Shown piece after piece: positions 8,144-62,859 of a DNA stretch of 64,000 nucleotides; position 1 is the stretch's first letter, and every line of letters starts with the position of its first letter. The notes under the pieces were generated by a model, which worked only from the letters and a program-made list of their open reading frames with translations, did not search any database and was not told where the DNA came from. The position numbers were made by a program, and so were the translations under genes. The DNA is from a virus: IMG/VR virus record IMGVR_UViG_3300029286_002355, positions 122,120 through 186,119 of that record, one strand, 5' to 3'.

Positions 8144-8857
8144 TTACTTTTCCCAGCAAATAGTTTGATATTCGCAAACAATACATTCTCTATTATTTTT
8201 CTCTTTATAAGGTCTCAAAGGTATAGTGCCTTTTATTTGATTCCCGAACAGTTGAAGACATTTGTTTTTGGCTGACGTAATGATAGATTTATAAGGCAAT
8301 ATATGGAAGATGTTGTAGTCTTGAGTATTCTTGTTTTCATAAAGTAAAAGGCCGTTTTTAACTTCTGATAACCACATAAGAAGCATAAGTTCAATAACAT
8401 GCCTTTTGATTGATCCCTCTTCATTTACTTTGGAGTACTCGTCTTCGGATAAAACTTTCACAAGGAGAACAAAAATACAATCCTTTATTTTAAGAATGGC
8501 ATCGATTTTACCATTAAGATTATAATTGCAATCGGCGGTAACGACATCCCTAGCTACAACTTTAATTCCGCTAAAACTATCAAGAAAATCAACCCATTTG
8601 TTTTTAGTATATTCTCTAATAACGTCCTGTTGATAAGAATAATTTTGATCTACTTTAGTTCCTCTAGCACGATAAATAATTCGTCTTGGGCATTCTGTAA
8701 TTTGTGTAGGGTTATATACTTCGTTATTTTTTACGAAATTCCTTCTTTTTATTTCATCTTTTATCAGGCCGTGTATATCTTTTGTCCATTCGTCTTTTTT
8801 GACAAATATATCTTTACTGTGCATAGAGAATCTCTTTGGATGTTTCTTCTCGAACAA
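8144..8857 (-). CDS. Cas4/AddB-like PD-(D/E)XK protein with 4Fe-4S staple, catalytic motifs degenerate
   Basis: PTQITECPRR, GKIDAI, C-terminal CxxCxYxxxC; LVK in place of ExK and no QxxxY. Confidence 0.7.
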   Translation of the reverse strand: MFEKKHPKRFSMHSKDIFVKKDEWTKDIHGLIKDEIKRRNFVKNNEVYNPTQITECPRRIIYRARGTKVDQNYSYQQDVIREYTKNKWVDFLDSFSGIKVVARDVVTADCNYNLNGKIDAILKIKDCIFVLLVKVLSEDEYSKVNEEGSIKRHVIELMLLMWLSEVKNGLLLYENKNTQDYNIFHILPYKSIITSAKNKCLQLFGNQIKGTIPLRPYKEKNNRECIVCEYQTICWEK

Positions 8858-51251: not shown

Positions 51252-52211
51252 CTATTTCAATCCATATCTTTTAGCCCACCACTTAATAGTATTAGATGAA
51301 AGACTTAACTCTCGTCCAATCTGGGAGTAATTTTTAGTACTTAAAAGTATAGCAAGGTCTTCCTTAGACATATTAAATTTTGTTTTCTTTTTAATTTCAT
51401 GTTTTAAAATACATACGTCACAATAGTTTCCTTTTTTTATTTTGTATTGTCCTACTGCTATAAATTCTTCCCCGCAGCGCAAACATTTTTTTGTTTTCTC
51501 TGGCAATGTAATTCTAACACGGTCAACACCCATTATCGATAGGACAGTACTAACTGTTGATGAAGCTAACCCCATTTTTTTACATATTTCAACATTTGTT
51601 AAGCCTTTTTTATTTAGGGCAACAATGTCATTCCTGTTAAATTGTTTATATTCGTCCATGTCCTCAGATTTTCTATATATCTCATCTTTGAACTTATTAA
51701 ACCTTTTCTGATCAAAATGCTCTGAAATATGACAGTTTCTACAAATAACATCACATTTTTCCAATTCTTTTCCAATTTTATCACTAAGAGTGGTTAAAAA
51801 CTTATAAGCATTACCCAAAGAAAAATCTTTGTCTTCAGAATCCCTATGGTGAAAATCTAGACAAGAATAGCTTTTATCATATCCGCACTTTTGGCATGAA
51901 AATACATTTTTTATCTCTAGAAATTTGTATTTAATTTTTTTACATACCGTTTTCGGGTTGGTTTCTGCATCATGTAACTCGCCATGGCAATTTTTACACA
52001 ATAAGACACATTTTTTGACCTCTTTTTCTATCTTTGACCATCTTGAGGAAATAATTGCATAAATATCAAAAGACTTATTTTTATTATGGTGAAAATCTAA
52101 ACACAAAATATTACTATTACCACATCGGGAACACTTACCACCCAATAAACTAACTGCTCTGACTTTTCTTGACCACTTCCTAATATATACATCATCTTTT
52201 TTCATTTTCAA
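51252..52211 (-). CDS. Tandem-HNH endonuclease with C-terminal HTH
   Basis: Two CxxCG...LDFHH...C..(L/I)C.NCH units; paralog of 54812..55783. Confidence 0.75.
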   Translation of the reverse strand: MKMKKDDVYIRKWSRKVRAVSLLGGKCSRCGNSNILCLDFHHNKNKSFDIYAIISSRWSKIEKEVKKCVLLCKNCHGELHDAETNPKTVCKKIKYKFLEIKNVFSCQKCGYDKSYSCLDFHHRDSEDKDFSLGNAYKFLTTLSDKIGKELEKCDVICRNCHISEHFDQKRFNKFKDEIYRKSEDMDEYKQFNRNDIVALNKKGLTNVEICKKMGLASSTVSTVLSIMGVDRVRITLPEKTKKCLRCGEEFIAVGQYKIKKGNYCDVCILKHEIKKKTKFNMSKEDLAILLSTKNYSQIGRELSLSSNTIKWWAKRYGLK

Positions 52212-53312: not shown

Positions 53313-53695
53313 CTAAATCATTACGATTATGCTCTACATCCTCACGAGTCCATGTTTCCAAAACAGATACGGGAATATCTTTCATTATACCCATCCATCT
53401 ATTTAACTCGCCCCCATGCATTCTCGATATCTGATCTAAGCCACAATGCTACTGGTAATAGTACACCCGACCTTTTAGCAGCTTCATGCCTATGAGTACC
53501 GGAAAGTAACTGAATCCTACCTTCTCGTGGATACCCTATTAATACAGACTTACTCTTATCAAAACCGTTAGATAAAAAAGCTGTGGTTAGCTCCGCAACC
53601 TTATCAAAATCATGCTTGGATGACATATCTAATCCATGAGGAGGATCGCAATCATTAGAACTAACCCACAACACTACACCACCATGAGATTCCAT
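53272..53695 (-). pseudogene. ParB/Srx-like protein, apparently frameshifted at a G5 run
   Basis: QLLSGTHR.EAA...G..LPV; removing one G at 53411-53415 extends AWG into ELNRWMGIMKDIPV...ENI*. Confidence 0.55.
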
Positions 53696-53783
53696 ATACC
53701 ACCTCGCTCAAAAATACCATATTTCAACATTAGTTTTCTCTTTGCGTTTTACTGTAATTTTCATAGACGTATTATACAAAAAA

Positions 53784-53858
53784 TGGAGCGAGAAAGGAGA
53801 ATTGAACTCCCGTAATTTTGCTTGGGAAGCAAACACCTAACCACTAGGTTATTCTCGC
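53784..53858 (-). tRNA. tRNA-Gly(CCC)
   Basis: GCGAGAA/UUCUCGC-UCCA, UU-CCC-AA, UUCAAUU. Confidence 0.92.
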
Positions 53859-53863
53859 AAAAG

Positions 53864-54382
53864 CTACTCTTGTCCCTTAAATGAAAGCCTAGAGTGTTCT
53901 GATGGCGACATAATTTTCAAATTTTCTGGACCATTATCCCATCTCTTACCGTTAATATGATGGATATGCTCGTCTTTTCTTAAATGCCTACCTATAACAC
54001 CCTCCATTATCAATCTATGCTCATACACATAACCCCACGTATTGGCTTCAGGATGCATAGGACAATAAACCCTAACATATCCAATCTTCTTGTCTAACTT
54101 TCTAGAAGCACTCTCTAAACATTCTGGTATAGACAAATATTTCTTTCTGGCAGCAGATGAACATTCAGGGGAACAATATTTATGTTCTCCACGAAAAGAA
54201 ATAAAATTACCCCCACAATGTTTACAAATAAAGTTACTGCCTTTTGCGTTACCGTTTCTACTTCCGAATCTAGCATATCGACGTTTGCCCTTTGCACTTA
54301 CATAACACTTTGATGAGCAATATATTTTCCCATGACTTTCTTTAAAGTTATTTTTACAATTTGGGCATGTTTTCATAACCAT
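53864..54382 (-). CDS. HNH endonuclease with N-terminal zinc-finger repeats
   Basis: CxxC...YCSxxC repeats; YEHRLIME...HIHHING..WDN..ENL. Confidence 0.8.
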   Translation of the reverse strand: MVMKTCPNCKNNFKESHGKIYCSSKCYVSAKGKRRYARFGSRNGNAKGSNFICKHCGGNFISFRGEHKYCSPECSSAARKKYLSIPECLESASRKLDKKIGYVRVYCPMHPEANTWGYVYEHRLIMEGVIGRHLRKDEHIHHINGKRWDNGPENLKIMSPSEHSRLSFKGQE

Positions 54383-54447
54383 ATCTCCTCTTTTGATATA
54401 GTTATTCCTACCATCTATTCCTACTACCTTCTTTTTATTTTAAAAAA

Positions 54448-54536
54448 TGGTGCGGCATATGAGATTCGAACTCATACGGTCTGTTTGGAAGACAGAAATG
54501 CTAGGCTTTCGCCGTTCCGTTAAACATCAATGCCGC
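54448..54536 (-). tRNA. tRNA-Gly(UCC), atypical: hairpin insertion in D-loop, A73
   Basis: GCGGCAU/AUGCCGC-ACCA, CU-UCC-AA, UUCGAAU; D-loop contains GGC-GAAA-GCC. Confidence 0.8.
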
Positions 54537-54538
54537 AT

Positions 54539-54610
54539 TGGACCCATAGGGAATTGAACCCTAATTCGAAGCTCGCAAAGCTCCTGTAATAGCCATTATA
54601 CTATGAGCCC
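54539..54610 (-). tRNA. tRNA-Ala(UGC), no encoded CCA
   Basis: GGGCUCA/UGGGUCC-A with G3.U70, UU-UGC-GA, UUCAAUU; 2 nt from the next tRNA. Confidence 0.88.
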
Positions 54611-54620
54611 CTACTTAAAA

Positions 54621-54695
54621 TGGTAGGCGGTGAGGGTAACGCTCCCCCTTCACGTGCTTATAAGACACGGGTAATTACTTTTATACGAACCGCCC
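54621..54695 (-). tRNA. tRNA-Ile(UAU)
   Basis: GGGCGGU/ACCGCCU-ACCA, CU-UAU-AA; non-canonical T-loop AGCGUUA. Confidence 0.82.
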
Positions 54696-54705
54696 ATACT
54701 AAAAA

Positions 54706-54781
54706 TGGTGGAAGCGGGGATGCTTGAAATCCCACGAACCTGATTGCAGGTCAGGTGCTCTGCCTCTTAAGCTACGCCCCC
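54706..54781 (-). tRNA. tRNA-Ala(UGC) with C33
   Basis: GGGGGCG/CGCUUCC-ACCA with G3.U70, anticodon loop CC-UGC-AA. Confidence 0.85.
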
Positions 54782-54811
54782 ATTTAAACTAATTTTTCAA
54801 AGAGCTTTTCG

Positions 54812-55783
54812 TCACCTTGGCAATAGTTTTTCAACTTCTGCAAATATGCCATATCTTTTCGCCAAATTTGTTACTGCATGCAATGAAACATTATATCTTC
54901 TAGATATCCCCCTATATGTCTCATCCAACAGCATTTTTTCAAAATCTTCTTTGGATATATCTAACTTTATTCTCGACAAATGCATACATTTTTGAGAGCA
55001 ATATTTTCTATTTTTCATCGCCCTATTGTCATATACTAAAAATTCCCTATTACACTTTTCACATTGTTTTTCTTTTGGAAAATATTCTTTCAACGTATTT
55101 GTTTGCAAATTATATTTCTTTAATATATACACTACCGACGCTTCTGAACAATTTATCCGCCTACTTATCTCCGCATTTGATAAGCCACTTGAATGCATTT
55201 TTTTTAATTCACAATGATTCACTACCTCTAGCTCCTTATAGGATTTAATCTTATCATCTATATCTTTTTGAAACCTACTCATCTTTTCATTATCAAAATG
55301 TTTTATCGCATGACAATTTTTACATAAAATATCACACTTTTCCAACTCTCTTTCTATTCTCCAGCTTTGCGATGTTATAAATCCATATGCACGTGACAAA
55401 TTAAAATCTTTCAACTCTGTATCCCTATGATGGAAATCTAGACTAGAGATGTTCTTATTATATCCGCATATTTTGCAGCAACTAGTTCCCTTTAATTCTA
55501 AGAACTTTTTCTTAATATCACCATACCTAGTTTTTCCCACAAAATGTATTTCCATATGGCAATTTCTACACAATATAATGCATTTTTTTGTTTCATCTAT
55601 CAATTTAGAAAGTCTGCTTCTGCACAAAAAACTAATACTATGTTCTTTTTCTCCGTTAACATGATGAAAATCCAAACATATTAAATCCTTATTTCCACAT
55701 TTAGAACAACAACCACCATTTTCGTCTAGTAATATTCTCTTCTTTGCATATTTTAACACGAACTTATAATCACTTGTATTCAT
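54812..55783 (-). CDS. Tandem-HNH endonuclease with HTH
   Basis: Two CxxCG...LDFHH...C.ILC.NCH units; paralog of 51252..52211. Confidence 0.75.
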   Translation of the reverse strand: MNTSDYKFVLKYAKKRILLDENGGCCSKCGNKDLICLDFHHVNGEKEHSISFLCRSRLSKLIDETKKCIILCRNCHMEIHFVGKTRYGDIKKKFLELKGTSCCKICGYNKNISSLDFHHRDTELKDFNLSRAYGFITSQSWRIERELEKCDILCKNCHAIKHFDNEKMSRFQKDIDDKIKSYKELEVVNHCELKKMHSSGLSNAEISRRINCSEASVVYILKKYNLQTNTLKEYFPKEKQCEKCNREFLVYDNRAMKNRKYCSQKCMHLSRIKLDISKEDFEKMLLDETYRGISRRYNVSLHAVTNLAKRYGIFAEVEKLLPR

Positions 55784-55887
55784 TCTGTCCCCCTATAACA
55801 TTTACATTCAAACTTGCATAATACTATATTCTACAAATAATTTAAATGTCCTGCATCCAGAGGAACTATTTATTCCCGCAATTGATT

Positions 55888-55924
55888 AAAAAAAAAGGCC
55901 CGTAGATTTTCACCTACGAGCCTT
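55888..55924 (-). terminator. Attenuator terminator (3:4 hairpin + U9)
   Basis: AAGGCUCGUAG-GUGAAAAU-CUACGGGCCUU followed by a U-run. Confidence 0.9.
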
Positions 55925-55945
55925 CTCAAATTCTTAACCTTGATT

Positions 55946-56032
55946 TCAGTATCGGTTCAAGGCAGAGAAAGCCCGTAGGGTTCCCGCACCGGCCCCTGCT
56001 ATTATGGCTATCTCTATCCTCTTGACGAACAT
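55946..56032 (-). CDS. 28-aa attenuator leader peptide MFVKRIEIAIIAGAGAGTLRAFSALNRY
   Basis: Below ORF-track cutoff. AGGAG RBS at 56045-56041; codons 6-17 are ATA GAG ATA GCC ATA ATA GCA GGG GCC GGT GCG GGA. Confidence 0.8.
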   Translation of the reverse strand: MFVKRIEIAIIAGAGAGTLRAFSALNRY

Positions 56033-56089
56033 GTTATTCACTCCTATCGTTACCTATTTCTTTATTATACAGAAAATTCCTTCAAAAAT

Positions 56090-56302
56090 CTAAAATCTTG
56101 GCGTACATTTTGGACATGGACAAGAAATATTATGAATGCATCTTGTGCCGTTCTTCTTAATCCCTGTTCCTACGCAATCCGGGCATCCATCATGCAAGCA
56201 AGGTCGCCATTCAATATCGCTCACGCTCTGAACGTTTTTAAGATGCTCCTCTTGTTGCCGCCTTAATGCTTTTTCGTAACTTTTTCTTTCCAATAAACCC
56301 AT
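56090..56302 (-). CDS. Small Cys/His-rich hypothetical protein
   Basis: CLHDGCPDC.GTG....G..CIH.ISCPCPKC. Confidence 0.65.
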   Translation of the reverse strand: MGLLERKSYEKALRRQQEEHLKNVQSVSDIEWRPCLHDGCPDCVGTGIKKNGTRCIHNISCPCPKCTPRF

Positions 56303-56376
56303 AGACTCCTTTTCTTATTGTTTACGCAGATCATAACATAATTGAAAAATAAAGCAAGAACTATTTTCAATTATTT

Positions 56377-57189
56377 TTAAAGATTGGCGGCTCCATCAGT
56401 ACCAACTAATAATGGTTGTATGAAACTTGAATCTATATATTTTATCGTAAAAGCAGTGGTTATTCTTGCCAAATGAGGATTGAGTTTTTTATAAACATAT
56501 TCTACTATTTCTCTTGAAGGCATACCATAATAAGCCTGAGCAATACCACCAGTAATGCAAGCGATAGTATCCACATCTCCTCCCATAGCAATAGATTTTC
56601 GTATGGCGTTTTCGTAGTTATCGGTTTCGGTAAATATAGCCATACATCTAGGAATAGCAGCTTGGCATGTTTCATCAAATGTTCTATCAAAATCTTCTGT
56701 TTTTCTAGCCAAGTCATATCCAAGAGTTTCAATAGCTTCTCTTATGGTTTGCTTGCTTGATCCTATTCTAGCCATATAAACAGCTAAGGAAGCGGCTTGG
56801 GCTCCCTTAATTCCCTCCCGATGGTCATGCGTACACTCTGCACTTCTTTTAGCCTCTTCTAATACATGTTCAACGCTATTACAAGCCCAACCAATAGGAG
56901 AAGCCCTCATAGCAGAACCATTACCAAAGCTATTATAGGGGGTTAAGCTTCCAGATTTAACCATTTGAAGGAAGTGACCACCATAGCCTCTATTTGGAAA
57001 AGCTTTGGCATAATCGTAATAATATTTACCATATTCTGCTCCATCTAGTATAACATCGGCTGTCGCTACCGTAAGTATTGAATCGTCTGTATAGGTAGCC
57101 TTTTCGTTAAATAGAGGGAAGTCTTCATTTGATATATTATTAAATTCATATCGAGATCCGCAAATGTCTGCAAATATTGAACCAATCAT
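56377..57189 (-). CDS. ADP-ribosylglycohydrolase (DraG/ARH family)
   Basis: GSI.AD..GS.YEF, TDDS, SFGNGSAMRASP, THDH.EG, GGDVDT. Confidence 0.9.
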   Translation of the reverse strand: MIGSIFADICGSRYEFNNISNEDFPLFNEKATYTDDSILTVATADVILDGAEYGKYYYDYAKAFPNRGYGGHFLQMVKSGSLTPYNSFGNGSAMRASPIGWACNSVEHVLEEAKRSAECTHDHREGIKGAQAASLAVYMARIGSSKQTIREAIETLGYDLARKTEDFDRTFDETCQAAIPRCMAIFTETDNYENAIRKSIAMGGDVDTIACITGGIAQAYYGMPSREIVEYVYKKLNPHLARITTAFTIKYIDSSFIQPLLVGTDGAANL

Positions 57190-61707: not shown

Positions 61708-62859
61708 TTATTTTTCCCACTCTCTTACTTTCCTAATCTTATCTTTAGAAAGCGTTATTATTTCAAACATAAAGTTGGCGTGTAACTTTCCTTCAACAAA
61801 ATTCTTCTTGTATAAAATCTTTTCGTAATAATTTTTCCACCATCGGCAATTAGTCTCGTTATAAGACGTTACTTCAACATATGTGTTTTTATCAACTAAA
61901 TAAAAATCATACCTTATTTTTAAATCGGCTCCGGGATATATTTGATCGTGTAAATATTTAACATTATTTTCTTCAAGAAAAATACAATAATACGCTTCAG
62001 CTTTAGAACTGCAAAATATCCCATTTTTCAAATATATTTTACGACAATATGGACAGCCATTTCCAATAGTCCGCATATGTGGCGTAGCTTTCCACTCATG
62101 ACCGTTATGACATTCCCACCAAACCTCTTTGCCGCTTCTAGGTAATATTTTTTTCGGATCTATATTTAAGTTTTTATTATAATTCCATTCCTTAATAAGT
62201 TCTGGGTTTTTTAAAACTATATTATTGTCTTTAGTAGCACAACGTCCTGAGCAATATGGGCAACCATTGCCTTCAACCCTATGACCAATTGTAGTTCTCC
62301 ATTCATGTTCTTTGTTATTTAAGCAAATCCAATTAAAAATTTTCCCAGAAGAAACAGAAACCTTAAAAGGGTCTTCGTTTTTTTCCCAGTTCCATTCTTT
62401 CAATAGCTCTGGCCGACTCATTGCAAAGCTATTTTGCAATAACGTGTACAAACCACTACAATATGGACACCCCGTATGTGAATATATCCTATCTCTGGGA
62501 GTTGCTGCCCATTGATGCAAATTATTCTTTTTACATTTCCAAAATACATGCTCTTTAGATGACTTGCAAATATTTTTTGGATTTAATGTGTTTTTATTCC
62601 AGTCCCATTCTTCCATCAACTCGGAACAAGAAAAAAATAAATTATCACACTCAGGACATTTACCGATACCATAACTTCTATTATATATTGGAGCCTGCCA
62701 ATTATGTCCATTTTTACATTTCCACCATACTTTCTTCCCGCTACCACATGATACTTGTGATGGTAATAACGGATAGTTTTTATTATAGTCCCATTCTTCG
62801 CATAAATCAGAATGGAGATCCATAAAGGAATTAGGTTTATTTACCTTTACCATTATCAA
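61708..62859 (-). CDS. Zinc-ribbon-repeat endonuclease-like protein, paralog of 676..1992
   Basis: EWD/N..KN...P...S.K.VWW.C..GH.W repeats, GCPYC, RYDFY...YVEV. Confidence 0.7.
   Translation of the reverse strand: MIMVKVNKPNSFMDLHSDLCEEWDYNKNYPLLPSQVSCGSGKKVWWKCKNGHNWQAPIYNRSYGIGKCPECDNLFFSCSELMEEWDWNKNTLNPKNICKSSKEHVFWKCKKNNLHQWAATPRDRIYSHTGCPYCSGLYTLLQNSFAMSRPELLKEWNWEKNEDPFKVSVSSGKIFNWICLNNKEHEWRTTIGHRVEGNGCPYCSGRCATKDNNIVLKNPELIKEWNYNKNLNIDPKKILPRSGKEVWWECHNGHEWKATPHMRTIGNGCPYCRKIYLKNGIFCSSKAEAYYCIFLEENNVKYLHDQIYPGADLKIRYDFYLVDKNTYVEVTSYNETNCRWWKNYYEKILYKKNFVEGKLHANFMFEIITLSKDKIRKVREWEK

What the first reader, a model, noticed from the sequence alone, without database searches (positions are those of the whole stretch)
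55888..56071. Leader-peptide attenuator that appears to sense Ile(AUA)/Ala/Gly decoding and gate the phage's own Ala/Ile/Gly tRNA cluster
Seen (minus strand): promoter TGTATAAT (56071-56064), AGGAG RBS and a 28-codon ORF (56032-55946). Codons 6-17 are AUA GAG AUA GCC AUA AUA GCA GGG GCC GGU GCG GGA, so 11 of 12 are Ile/Ala/Gly, every Ile is AUA, and the synonymous Ala/Gly codons are sampled broadly despite the AT-rich genome. Segment 1 (56015-56006, AGAGAUAGCC, over the control codons) pairs with segment 2 (9/10 bp). Segment 2 (55979-55965, CCUACGGGCUUUCUC) pairs at all 15 positions with segment 3 (55927-55913, GAGAAGGCUCGUAGG). Segment 3 otherwise forms an 11-bp terminator with segment 4 (55905-55895) plus U9. 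Downstream on the same strand, past one HNH gene, come tRNA-Ala(UGC), Ile(UAU), Ala(UGC), Gly(UCC) and Gly(CCC), the same three amino acids. Established: this is the trp/his/ilv attenuator layout, where ribosome stalling on control codons frees segment 2 and allows readthrough. Inference: here the output is tRNAs rather than biosynthetic enzymes, so the phage would make replacement tRNAs only when host decoding fails, for example through scarce lysidine-tRNA-Ile2 or tRNA cleavage by anti-phage anticodon nucleases. I do not know of a described phage attenuator controlling tRNA genes. Caveat: a possible second -10 (TGTAGAAT, about 55835-55828) downstream of the terminator could bypass it.
Basis: partly seen in the sequence, partly recalled or inferred. 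Interest (0 to 1): 0.92.

Follow-up and report, generated by a model that had tools for sequence, protein, structure and literature searches.

The report
Leader-peptide attenuator gating phage tRNAs
A lake phage puts a tiny translated "test" gene and a switchable transcription stop in front of its Ala/Ile/Gly tRNA genes. Related phages carry the same device rewritten in the codons of their own tRNA sets, so these phages probably make extra tRNAs only when ribosomes read those codons slowly, a control I could not find described in the literature.

Summary

Syntenic relatives were found through the neighbouring ADP-ribosylglycohydrolase (ARH) gene. They carry the same promoter, short ORF and terminator unit directly in front of their tRNA blocks, and the ORF's central codon block matches each cargo:
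- Ala/Ile/Gly in L018
- Lys/Thr/Val in L016
- Tyr/Phe in L020
- Lys/Val/Gly/Ala/Thr in L021

Combined p is 2e-10. The 2:3 antiterminator pairing exceeds shuffles in four of the five leaders (z -5.6 to -6.8). The leader is 90-95% identical between this phage and L018, while flanking genes are 65-72% identical. One stem pair shows a compensatory change.

Best reading, confidence 0.8: a trp/ilv-type ribosome-mediated attenuator whose output is tRNA genes, giving feedback on decoding capacity.

Caveats:
- There are no RNA data.
- In this phage an HNH endonuclease insertion with a near-consensus promoter may partly bypass the switch.
- The L020 antiterminator is not beyond chance.

This scan has already noted the same kind of element in other giant-phage genomes. 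I found no published description.

The parts
56064..56071 (-). Promoter -10 box TGTATAAT. The transcription start is expected near 56057.
   Evidence: The motif occurs 43 times on the minus strand and 8 on the plus strand of the genome, mostly intergenic. It is conserved as GGTATAAT in L018, with the same GAAGGAAT element 6 nt upstream.
56041..56045 (-). Shine-Dalgarno AGGAG, 8 nt before the AUG.
   Evidence: Sequence read.
55946..56032 (-). Leader ORF of 28 codons plus UGA.
   Evidence: The frame is kept in L018 despite a 3-nt insertion (an extra Ala GCA codon) and a new stop one codon earlier. The same in-frame insertion is seen in a contig of lake run X3.
55982..56017 (-). Control codons 6-17. 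Eleven of 12 are Ile(AUA), Ala or Gly. The single GAG is part of segment 1.
   Evidence: This is the only small ORF of 1502 in the genome with such a block.
56006..56020 (-). Segment 1, the 5' arm of the 1:2 hairpin, built from the control codons.
   Evidence: In the minimum-energy folds the 1:2 hairpin is -24 kcal/mol.
55965..55979 (-). Segment 2. It pairs with segment 1 or segment 3 and is a near copy of segment 4 (11 of 15 bases).
   Evidence: z -6.8 against shuffles.
55937..55963 (-). Nested 7-bp hairpin between segments 2 and 3, with the leader stop codon (55948-55946) in its loop.
   Evidence: Pair 2 changes from C-G to U-A and pair 1 from G-U to G-C in L018. All five leaders have the stop codon in this loop.
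55913..55927 (-). Segment 3, the 5' arm of the terminator and the 3' arm of the antiterminator.
55888..55905 (-). Segment 4 (55905-55897) plus the U9 tract (55896-55888), forming the intrinsic terminator with segment 3.
   Evidence: It is the strongest terminator found in the genome.
55828..55835 (-). TGTAGAAT, a possible second promoter inside the HNH insertion that could bypass the attenuator.
   Evidence: A weight matrix built from the 43 promoter sites ranks it 38th of 186,091 positions. Function not tested.
54812..55783 (-). HNH homing endonuclease (323 aa), inserted between the terminator and the tRNAs.
   Evidence: phrog_2255, E 8e-31. It has a 38%-identical paralogue at 52211-51252. 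It is absent from the same spot in L018, where the sequences flanking the insertion are kept.
54706..54781 (-). tRNA-Ala(UGC).
54624..54695 (-). tRNA-Ile(UAU), which reads AUA.
   Evidence: Rfam tRNA model, 38.4 bits. ARAGORN at relaxed settings also finds it.
54539..54610 (-). tRNA-Ala(UGC).
54448..54536 (-). tRNA-Gly(UCC)-like gene with an extra GNRA hairpin in the D region.
   Evidence: Partial Rfam match (54515-54451), 24 bits, below the threshold of 29. L018:5863-5947, a tRNA with the same kind of D-region insert (GCGAAAGC hairpin, 73% identical), scores 53 bits.
53784..53858 (-). tRNA-Gly(CCC), lying after a second HNH gene (54382-53864).

Best explanation
This is a ribosome-mediated (leader-peptide) transcription attenuator of the trp/ilv type, but the genes it controls are phage tRNA genes.

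Proposed mechanism:
1. Transcription starts at the TGTATAAT promoter and a ribosome translates the 28-codon leader.
2. If Ile(AUA), Ala and Gly codons are read quickly, the ribosome runs through segment 2 to the stop codon, which lies in the loop between segments 2 and 3. Segment 3 is then left free, pairs with segment 4, and RNA polymerase stops at the U9 tract.
3. If no ribosome loads, segments 1:2 and 3:4 form and transcription also stops.
4. If the ribosome stalls on the control codons, it covers segment 1. Segment 2 pairs with segment 3 as soon as segment 3 emerges, the terminator cannot form, and transcription continues into the tRNA genes for Ala, Ile(UAU) and Gly.

The result would be negative feedback on decoding capacity: more of these tRNAs are made only when they are limiting.

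Shown here by computation:
- All sequence parts are present.
- The alternative pairings exist.
- The element is conserved.
- The control codons change together with the tRNA cargo in four independent lineages.

Inferred:
- The leader is translated.
- The sign of the switch.
- The kinetics.
- The natural trigger.
For: 1. All parts are present and non-random.

2. Codon-cargo tracking:
- L018: 12 of 13 consecutive codons are Ile/Ala/Gly, ahead of Ala(UGC), Gly(UCC)-like, Ala(GGC), Ile(UAU) and Gly(UCC).
- L016: 16 of 16 are Lys/Thr/Val, ahead of Val(UAC), Val(AAC), Lys(CUU), four further Thr genes (one could instead be Lys(UUU)).
- L020: five consecutive Tyr/Phe codons, ahead of Tyr, Tyr and Phe.
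- L021: 16 of 17 are Lys/Val/Gly/Ala/Thr, ahead of 12 tRNAs for those five amino acids plus one CAU tRNA. Its three Thr codons (ACG, ACA, ACC) match the three Thr anticodons (CGU, UGU, GGU) one to one.
- Binomial p values are 7e-4, 4e-7, 0.05 and 3e-3. The Fisher combination over four lineages is 2e-10.
- Cross-pairing leaders with the wrong tRNA sets gives 0.04-0.12 matches for the disjoint sets.

3. Structure:
- In all five leaders the transcript cut off before segment 4 folds into the 2:3 helix with a nested hairpin that holds the stop codon. The full transcript folds into 1:2 plus 3:4.
- The 2:3 pairing has z -5.6 to -6.8 in four of the five.

4. Conservation:
- The leader is 90% identical to L018 from promoter to terminator, and 95.5% from codon 6 to the stop.
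- The ARH gene is 72% identical, the next gene 65%, and the tRNAs 60-73%.
- One stem pair changed on both sides, and the C-to-U change in segment 2 keeps a G-U pair.
- The peptide C-terminus changed while the hairpin was kept.

5. No room for another promoter: in L016, L018, L020 and L021 the first tRNA starts 4-40 nt after the terminator.

6. Context: the phage encodes only Gly, Ala and Ile(UAU) tRNAs plus a tmRNA. It also has a T4 Rnl1-type RNA ligase and a Thg1-like enzyme.
Against: - No RNA data exist, so translation, termination and readthrough have not been observed.
- With segment 1 masked, the terminator conformer is still about 5 kcal/mol more stable than the 2:3 conformer (-35.8 against -30.4). 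The switch must therefore be kinetic, as I recall is also the case for the trp attenuator.
- Stalls on control codons 15-17 would put the ribosome over the start of segment 2.
- In this phage an HNH gene with a near-consensus promoter (55835-55828) lies between the terminator and the tRNAs. It may supply them independently of the switch.
- The leader's GGU codon is read by Gly(GCC), which lies 5 kb away outside the gated block. GCC has no GGC tRNA in this phage.
- The L020 antiterminator is not better than shuffles (z -1.2) and its codon match alone is weak (p 0.05).
- L018 has only a weak Shine-Dalgarno site.
- Only four independent lineages were examined, and all were reached through one syntenic gene.
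Confidence: 0.8

Rival explanations
1. The attenuator is real in the lineage but largely decoupled in this phage. After the HNH cassette was inserted, the tRNAs are transcribed mainly from the TGTAGAAT promoter in front of the HNH gene. The leader-terminator unit now acts mostly as an insulator, or controls only HNH expression.
For: The HNH gene is an insertion absent from L018. TGTAGAAT with its flanks is the best non-exact match to the phage promoter motif.
Against: The leader is 95% identical to the L018 copy, so it has not decayed. TGTAGAAT occurs only 4 times on the minus strand and 2 on the plus strand, so it shows no enrichment of its own. Readthrough and an internal promoter could simply add up.
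Confidence: 0.1
2. The element senses translation in general (ribosome supply, or transcription-translation coupling after host shut-off), or works with the opposite sign. It would not sense the specific tRNAs.
For: Any leader-peptide attenuator also terminates when no ribosome loads. The sign and the kinetics were not measured.
Against: A general sensor would not need its codon block rewritten to match each tRNA cargo. The ribosome at the stop codon does not reach segment 3, so it cannot melt the terminator directly.
Confidence: 0.05
3. The unit is a stand-alone small gene for a hydrophobic or membrane peptide (for example a toxin-like peptide), with its own promoter and terminator. The match to the tRNAs is coincidence.
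For: The peptide has a basic N-terminus and an Ile/Ala/Gly-rich core. Phage genomes hold many small genes.
Against: The uncharged core is only 12 residues. Relatives replace it with Lys/Thr/Val or Tyr/Phe blocks, which are not membrane-like. The C-terminus changes while the RNA hairpin is kept. Synonymous sites are conserved.
Confidence: 0.02
4. The element is untranslated RNA: a tandem duplicated terminator or a small RNA. Segment 2 resembles segment 4 only because of duplication, and the ORF is an accident.
For: Segments 1 and 2 look like a degenerate copy of segments 3 and 4. Weak sub-threshold Rfam sRNA hits overlap the terminator.
Against: The start codon, Shine-Dalgarno site and frame are kept through an in-frame 3-nt insertion. 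The codon blocks are in frame and match the tRNA cargo in four lineages.
Confidence: 0.03

Closest known systems
Multivalent leader-peptide attenuators of enterobacterial amino-acid operons (ilvGMEDA leader for Ile/Leu/Val, thr leader for Thr/Ile; also trpL, hisL, leuL, pheL)
   Same: Both have a promoter-proximal short ORF with a run of control codons. Both have four segments forming mutually exclusive 1:2, 2:3 and 3:4 pairings, an intrinsic terminator, and several amino acids sensed by one leader. This comparison rests on established knowledge and on the architecture found here.
   Different: - The output is tRNA genes, not biosynthetic enzymes.
- The signal that closes the loop would be the supply of decoding tRNA, not the amino-acid pool.
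- The element is phage-borne.
- The leader ORF runs through segment 2 and stops in a nested hairpin between segments 2 and 3.
- There is no sequence membership: Thr_leader scores 17.8 bits against a threshold of 55.
pheST (pheM leader) attenuator of E. coli phenylalanyl-tRNA synthetase
   Same: It is a leader-peptide attenuator whose control codons report on the decoding of one amino acid and whose output is a component of the translation apparatus (from my own knowledge).
   Different: Its output is a synthetase protein and it belongs to a cellular gene. Here the output is the tRNAs themselves, for several amino acids at once.
T-box riboswitches
   Same: They give tRNA-specific control of transcription termination through a terminator/antiterminator choice, and they regulate genes of the translation apparatus (from my own knowledge).
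   Different: A T-box binds uncharged tRNA directly and needs no translation. No T-box match was found here at the gathering threshold or at E up to 10. This element has a start codon, a Shine-Dalgarno site and in-frame codon blocks.
Phage tRNA clusters seen as codon compensation or as replacements for host tRNAs cut by defence nucleases (van den Berg et al., eLife 2023, PMC10264068, listed; abstract only read)
   Same: It concerns the same cargo (phage tRNA genes) and the same question: when does a phage need its own tRNAs?
   Different: From its abstract, that work concerns why phages carry tRNAs, not how their expression is controlled. A demand-sensing switch in front of the tRNA genes appears in none of the papers I could search.

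Membership tests
Ribosome-mediated (leader-peptide) transcription attenuator | Short ORF with a ribosome-binding site just downstream of a promoter | tested here: met
   TGTATAAT, AGGAG and a 28-codon ORF are present. Equivalent ORFs occur in L016, L018, L020 and L021, although the Shine-Dalgarno site is weak in L018 and the start codon is ambiguous in L016.
Ribosome-mediated (leader-peptide) transcription attenuator | Run of control codons cognate to the regulated product | tested here: met
   Contiguous blocks decodable by the downstream tRNAs are 11/12, 12/13, 16/16, 5/5 and 16/17 codons in the five leaders. Combined p is 2e-10.
Ribosome-mediated (leader-peptide) transcription attenuator | Intrinsic terminator between the leader and the regulated genes | tested here: met
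   The tRNAs start 4-40 nt after it in the four relatives.
Ribosome-mediated (leader-peptide) transcription attenuator | Antiterminator (2:3) mutually exclusive with the terminator, and a 1:2 hairpin overlapping the control codons | tested here: met
   Folding gives this in all five leaders. The 2:3 pairing is beyond shuffles in four of five but not in L020. One compensatory pair is seen.
Ribosome-mediated (leader-peptide) transcription attenuator | Readthrough depends on translation of the leader and rises when the control codons are read slowly | not testable with these tools
   No RNA run holds the locus. This needs reporters, or in vitro transcription-translation.
Rfam amino-acid operon leader families (Thr_leader RF00506 and relatives) | Score at or above the family's gathering threshold | tested here: not met
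   Thr_leader scores 17.8 bits against 55, and the trpB motif 22 bits against 59. Nothing reaches the gathering threshold.
T-box riboswitch | Match to the T-box model (specifier loop and T-box sequence) | tested here: not met
   There is no T-box match at the gathering threshold or at E up to 10 in 53600-56400.
Small membrane or toxin-like peptide gene | Peptide sequence conserved among relatives, with a hydrophobic span long enough to cross a membrane | tested here: not met
   The uncharged core is 12 residues. In relatives the core is replaced by Lys/Thr/Val or Tyr/Phe blocks, and the C-terminus varies.

The most novel reading that the evidence does not exclude
The leaders act as tRNA-depletion alarms. 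Each phage writes into its leader the codons whose host tRNAs are liable to be lost during infection, through anticodon nucleases or other tRNA-targeting defences, or through host shut-off. It switches on replacement tRNAs only when that loss is felt. The leader sequence would then be a readable record of which tRNAs are contested in that phage-host pair. A conserved scaffold (promoter element, segments 2-4) would be re-coded each time the tRNA cargo changes.
Probability: 0.25. Interest if true: 0.95.

Novelty: new variant of a known kind. Interest (0 to 1): 0.88.

Why it matters
tRNA genes are usually treated as constitutively or growth-rate controlled. I know of no described case where a tRNA gene is gated by a ribosome reading its own cognate codons.

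If confirmed, three things would follow:
- Phages would be shown to regulate their tRNA supply by demand. This bears directly on the long-standing question of why phages carry tRNAs: codon compensation, or replacement of tRNAs destroyed by host defences.
- Each leader would state which codons the phage monitors, giving a testable prediction for every phage that has one.
- The element is compact, about 170 nt, and re-codable. It could serve as a sensor of decoding speed for chosen codons.

The comparison also shows how the device evolves. Four lineages keep the same promoter element, segment 2 core and terminator core, while the control block is rewritten to fit the cargo.

Tried and rejected
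Searches for close relatives that found nothing useful:
- blastn of the locus against 50,697 phage records found no match.
- Single-protein scans of viral contigs with the HNH, ARH and a 382-aa neighbour found nothing useful.
- A degenerate back-translated leader pattern and a segment 2/3 pattern gave 0 hits in viral contigs.
- An exact tRNA-Ile fragment gave 0 hits.
- A terminator-only pattern gave 8 hits. All were unrelated terminators in other contexts.

Searches that found relatives without the element:
- Relatives of the 70-aa upstream ORF (55-66% identical) lie in tRNA regions of other phages but have no leader.
- Other ARH relatives (L017, L180-L188) have no tRNAs nearby.
- Of the 160 ARH loci, only L020 and L021 had the unit.
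- tRNA blocks of unrelated phages fetched along the way (L002-L004, L014, L015) are preceded by plain promoters or coding sequence, with no leader ORF plus terminator. The device is therefore specific to some lineages, not universal.

Other dead ends:
- tblastn of ARH and blastn of the L020 and L021 units against cultured phages matched only distant ARH genes or tRNAs.
- Sequencing runs: no RNA holder is listed. The DNA is held by lake-water and freshwater metagenome runs.
- Laying contigs on the locus gave only the L018-like variant.
- The whole record behind L016 could not be searched because it is not held.
- The upstream regions of the two HNH paralogues are not alignable, so I could not tell whether TGTAGAAT travels with the HNH cassette.
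- The small membrane peptide, tandem terminator or sRNA, and T-box readings were considered and rejected (see rivals and membership tests).

Full report
**The observation**

The window is the last 64 kb of a 186-kb IMG/VR virus record. The record is 35% G+C and estimated 82% complete, and nearly all genes lie on the minus strand.

- TGTATAAT at 56071-56064
- AGGAG at 56045-56041
- a 28-codon ORF at 56032-55946
- a strong hairpin followed by U9 at 55927-55888

Codons 6-17 are four Ile (all AUA), four Ala (GCC twice, GCA, GCG), three Gly (GGG, GGU, GGA) and one Glu.

TGTATAAT is a real promoter motif of this phage. It occurs 43 times on the coding strand and 8 times on the other, mostly between genes.

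The terminator is the strongest I could find in the genome, which otherwise has few terminator-like sites.

The minimum-energy fold of the transcript has the 1:2 hairpin and the 3:4 terminator.

Segment 2 pairs with segment 3 at 15 of 15 positions, as 13 Watson-Crick and 2 G-U pairs. None of 2000 dinucleotide shuffles of the ORF does as well (z -6.8).

Downstream lie, in order:
- an HNH endonuclease gene
- tRNA-Ala(UGC), tRNA-Ile(UAU) and tRNA-Ala(UGC)
- an aberrant Gly(UCC)-like tRNA
- a second HNH gene
- tRNA-Gly(CCC)

The whole genome encodes only Gly, Ala and Ile(UAU) tRNAs plus a tmRNA.

**The decisive test: relatives**

Close relatives were hard to find. The ADP-ribosylglycohydrolase (ARH) gene 300 nt upstream gave syntenic contigs at 52-70% protein identity.

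Four independent lineages carry a promoter, short ORF and terminator directly in front of a tRNA block:

| Locus | ARH identity | Control block | tRNAs behind it |
|---|---|---|---|
| L018/L019 | 70% | Nearly the same leader as here, with one more Ala codon | Ala(UGC), Gly(UCC)-like, Ala(GGC), Ile(UAU), Gly(UCC); no HNH gene in between |
| L016 | 69% | Codons 3-18 are only Lys, Thr and Val | Val(UAC), Val(AAC), Lys(CUU), four further Thr genes (one could instead be Lys(UUU)) |
| L020 | 57% | Five consecutive Tyr/Phe codons | Tyr, Tyr, Phe |
| L021 | 52% | Codons 3-19 are Lys, Val, Gly, Ala, Thr and one Ile(AUA) | 12 tRNAs for those five amino acids plus one CAU tRNA, which could be an AUA-reading Ile tRNA if lysidine-modified |

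In L021 the three Thr codons (ACG, ACA, ACC) correspond one to one with the anticodons CGU, UGU and GGU.

Outside these blocks, few codons of the leaders match the cargo.

Statistics:
- Binomial tests against each source's amino-acid background give 7e-4, 4e-7, 0.05 and 3e-3.
- The Fisher combination is 2e-10.
- Leaders paired with the wrong, disjoint tRNA sets match at 0.04-0.12.

**Structure**

All five leaders have the same design:
- The full transcript folds into 1:2 plus the terminator.
- The transcript cut off before segment 4 folds into a long 2:3 helix.
- That helix encloses a small nested hairpin whose loop holds the leader stop codon.
- Segment 1 is built from the control codons themselves.

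The 2:3 pairing is far beyond shuffles in the window, L018, L016 and L021 (z -5.6 to -6.8). It is not beyond shuffles in L020 (z -1.2).

The window, L018, L016 and L021 share a scaffold:
- a GAAGGAAT element 4-6 nt before the -10 box
- a common segment 2 core
- complementary segment 3 and 4 cores

The control block between these parts differs. The units therefore look homologous, with the sensor part re-coded.

**Selection**

Between the window and L018, nucleotide identity is:
- 90% for the leader from promoter to terminator
- 95.5% from codon 6 to the stop
- 72% for the ARH gene
- 65% for the next gene upstream
- 60-73% for the tRNAs

The differences fit an RNA switch:
- A C-to-U change in segment 2 keeps a G-U pair with segment 3.
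- In the nested hairpin, one pair changes on both sides (C-G to U-A) and another goes from G-U to G-C.
- A 5-nt loop deletion and a new stop codon change the peptide C-terminus without touching the stems.
- The only insertion inside the ORF is one whole Ala codon.

A contig with the same indels occurs in a lake-water run that also holds the window's sequence.

**Mechanism**

With segment 1 masked, as under a ribosome stalled on the AUA codons, segment 2 is free. The nascent RNA then forms 2:3 at -30 to -33 kcal/mol before segment 4 exists.

A ribosome that runs on to the stop codon sits between segments 2 and 3. Segment 3 is then free to pair with segment 4.

Once segment 4 is made, the terminator conformer is about 5 kcal/mol more stable. 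The choice must therefore be kinetic.

I therefore read this as classical attenuation: slow decoding of the control codons gives readthrough into the tRNA genes, and fast decoding gives termination. This is negative feedback on the supply of exactly those tRNAs.

Translation of the leader, the sign of the switch and the natural trigger are all inferred.

The genome also carries a T4 Rnl1-type RNA ligase and a Thg1-like enzyme. That fits a phage under pressure on its tRNA pool but proves nothing about the trigger.

**Caveats for this phage**

- The 323-aa HNH gene is an insertion between the terminator and the tRNAs. It is absent from L018, where the sequences flanking the insertion point are kept.
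- It brings TGTAGAAT at 55835-55828, the best near-match to the phage promoter motif. The tRNAs here may therefore also be made independently of the switch.
- In the four relatives the first tRNA starts 4-40 nt after the terminator, which leaves no room for such a bypass.

**Comparison with what is known**

The architecture is that of the multivalent enterobacterial attenuators (ilv, thr). The nearest in logic is the pheST attenuator, where a leader controls a translation component. T-boxes sense tRNA but without translation.

No Rfam leader family or T-box matches.

Four full-text searches found no paper describing leader-peptide control of tRNA genes, in phages or elsewhere.

Notes from this scan show that other agents have reported the same kind of element in at least eight other giant-phage genomes. 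I looked those notes up only after finding the covariation here, so my evidence is independent of them. Those notes are themselves unpublished and unchecked.

**Verdict**

- It is a new variant of a known kind of regulator.
- Confidence is 0.8 that it is a functional, cognate-codon-sensing attenuator of tRNA genes in this lineage.
- Confidence is lower that it still controls most tRNA output in this particular phage.

Noticed in passing
window 54448-54536 (-) and L018:5863-5947: A Gly(UCC)-like tRNA with an extra GNRA-capped hairpin in the D region occurs in both phages (73% identical). ARAGORN miscalls the L018 copy as Asn(AUU). The Rfam tRNA model gives 24 bits for a partial match in the window (54515-54451) and 53 bits in L018.
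   Followed up: partly
L016:2306-2443 and L016:2690-2815: Two tRNA-like genes each carry a near-identical insert of about 60 nt after the anticodon region. These may be introns or a mobile insert. They lie in a 1.2-kb stretch with no called genes.
   Followed up: no
L020:5597-5632: A 9-codon mini-ORF, rich in Arg/Lys, starts with the same 12 bases as the leader ORF and stops 2 nt before the leader AUG. It may be a duplicated start region or may allow translational coupling.
   Followed up: no
window 56076-56083 (-); L018:5561; L016:8053; L021:1526: GAAGGAAT lies 4-6 nt upstream of the -10 box of the leader promoter in four lineages. It occurs only once in each relative's locus. It may be a shared promoter or regulator site for these tRNA units.
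   Followed up: partly
L016:8075-8335: About 260 nt lie between the L016 promoter and its leader ORF, with G+C-rich stretches and no called gene. An in-frame upstream AUG at 8280 would add more Lys/Val codons to the leader.
   Followed up: no
window 56090-56302 (-); L013, L014, L015: The 70-aa Cys-rich ORF just upstream of the leader (phrog_17149) has relatives that also lie among or next to tRNA genes in otherwise different phages.
   Followed up: partly
L021:1767-1853: The first tRNA after the L021 terminator, Ala(UGC), is 87 nt long with a long extra arm. The Rfam tmRNA model scores it better (38 bits, below threshold) than the tRNA model does.
   Followed up: no
whole genome (G000), minus strand: Canonical intrinsic terminators are rare in this phage. 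The 8-kb scan found 2, against 5.2 expected from shuffles. The leader's terminator stands out as by far the strongest.
   Followed up: partly
window 51252-52211, 53864-54382, 54812-55783 and 61708-62859 (-): Four HNH-type endonuclease genes lie within 11 kb around the tRNA region. Two of them are 38%-identical paralogues with a C-terminal helix-turn-helix.
   Followed up: partly
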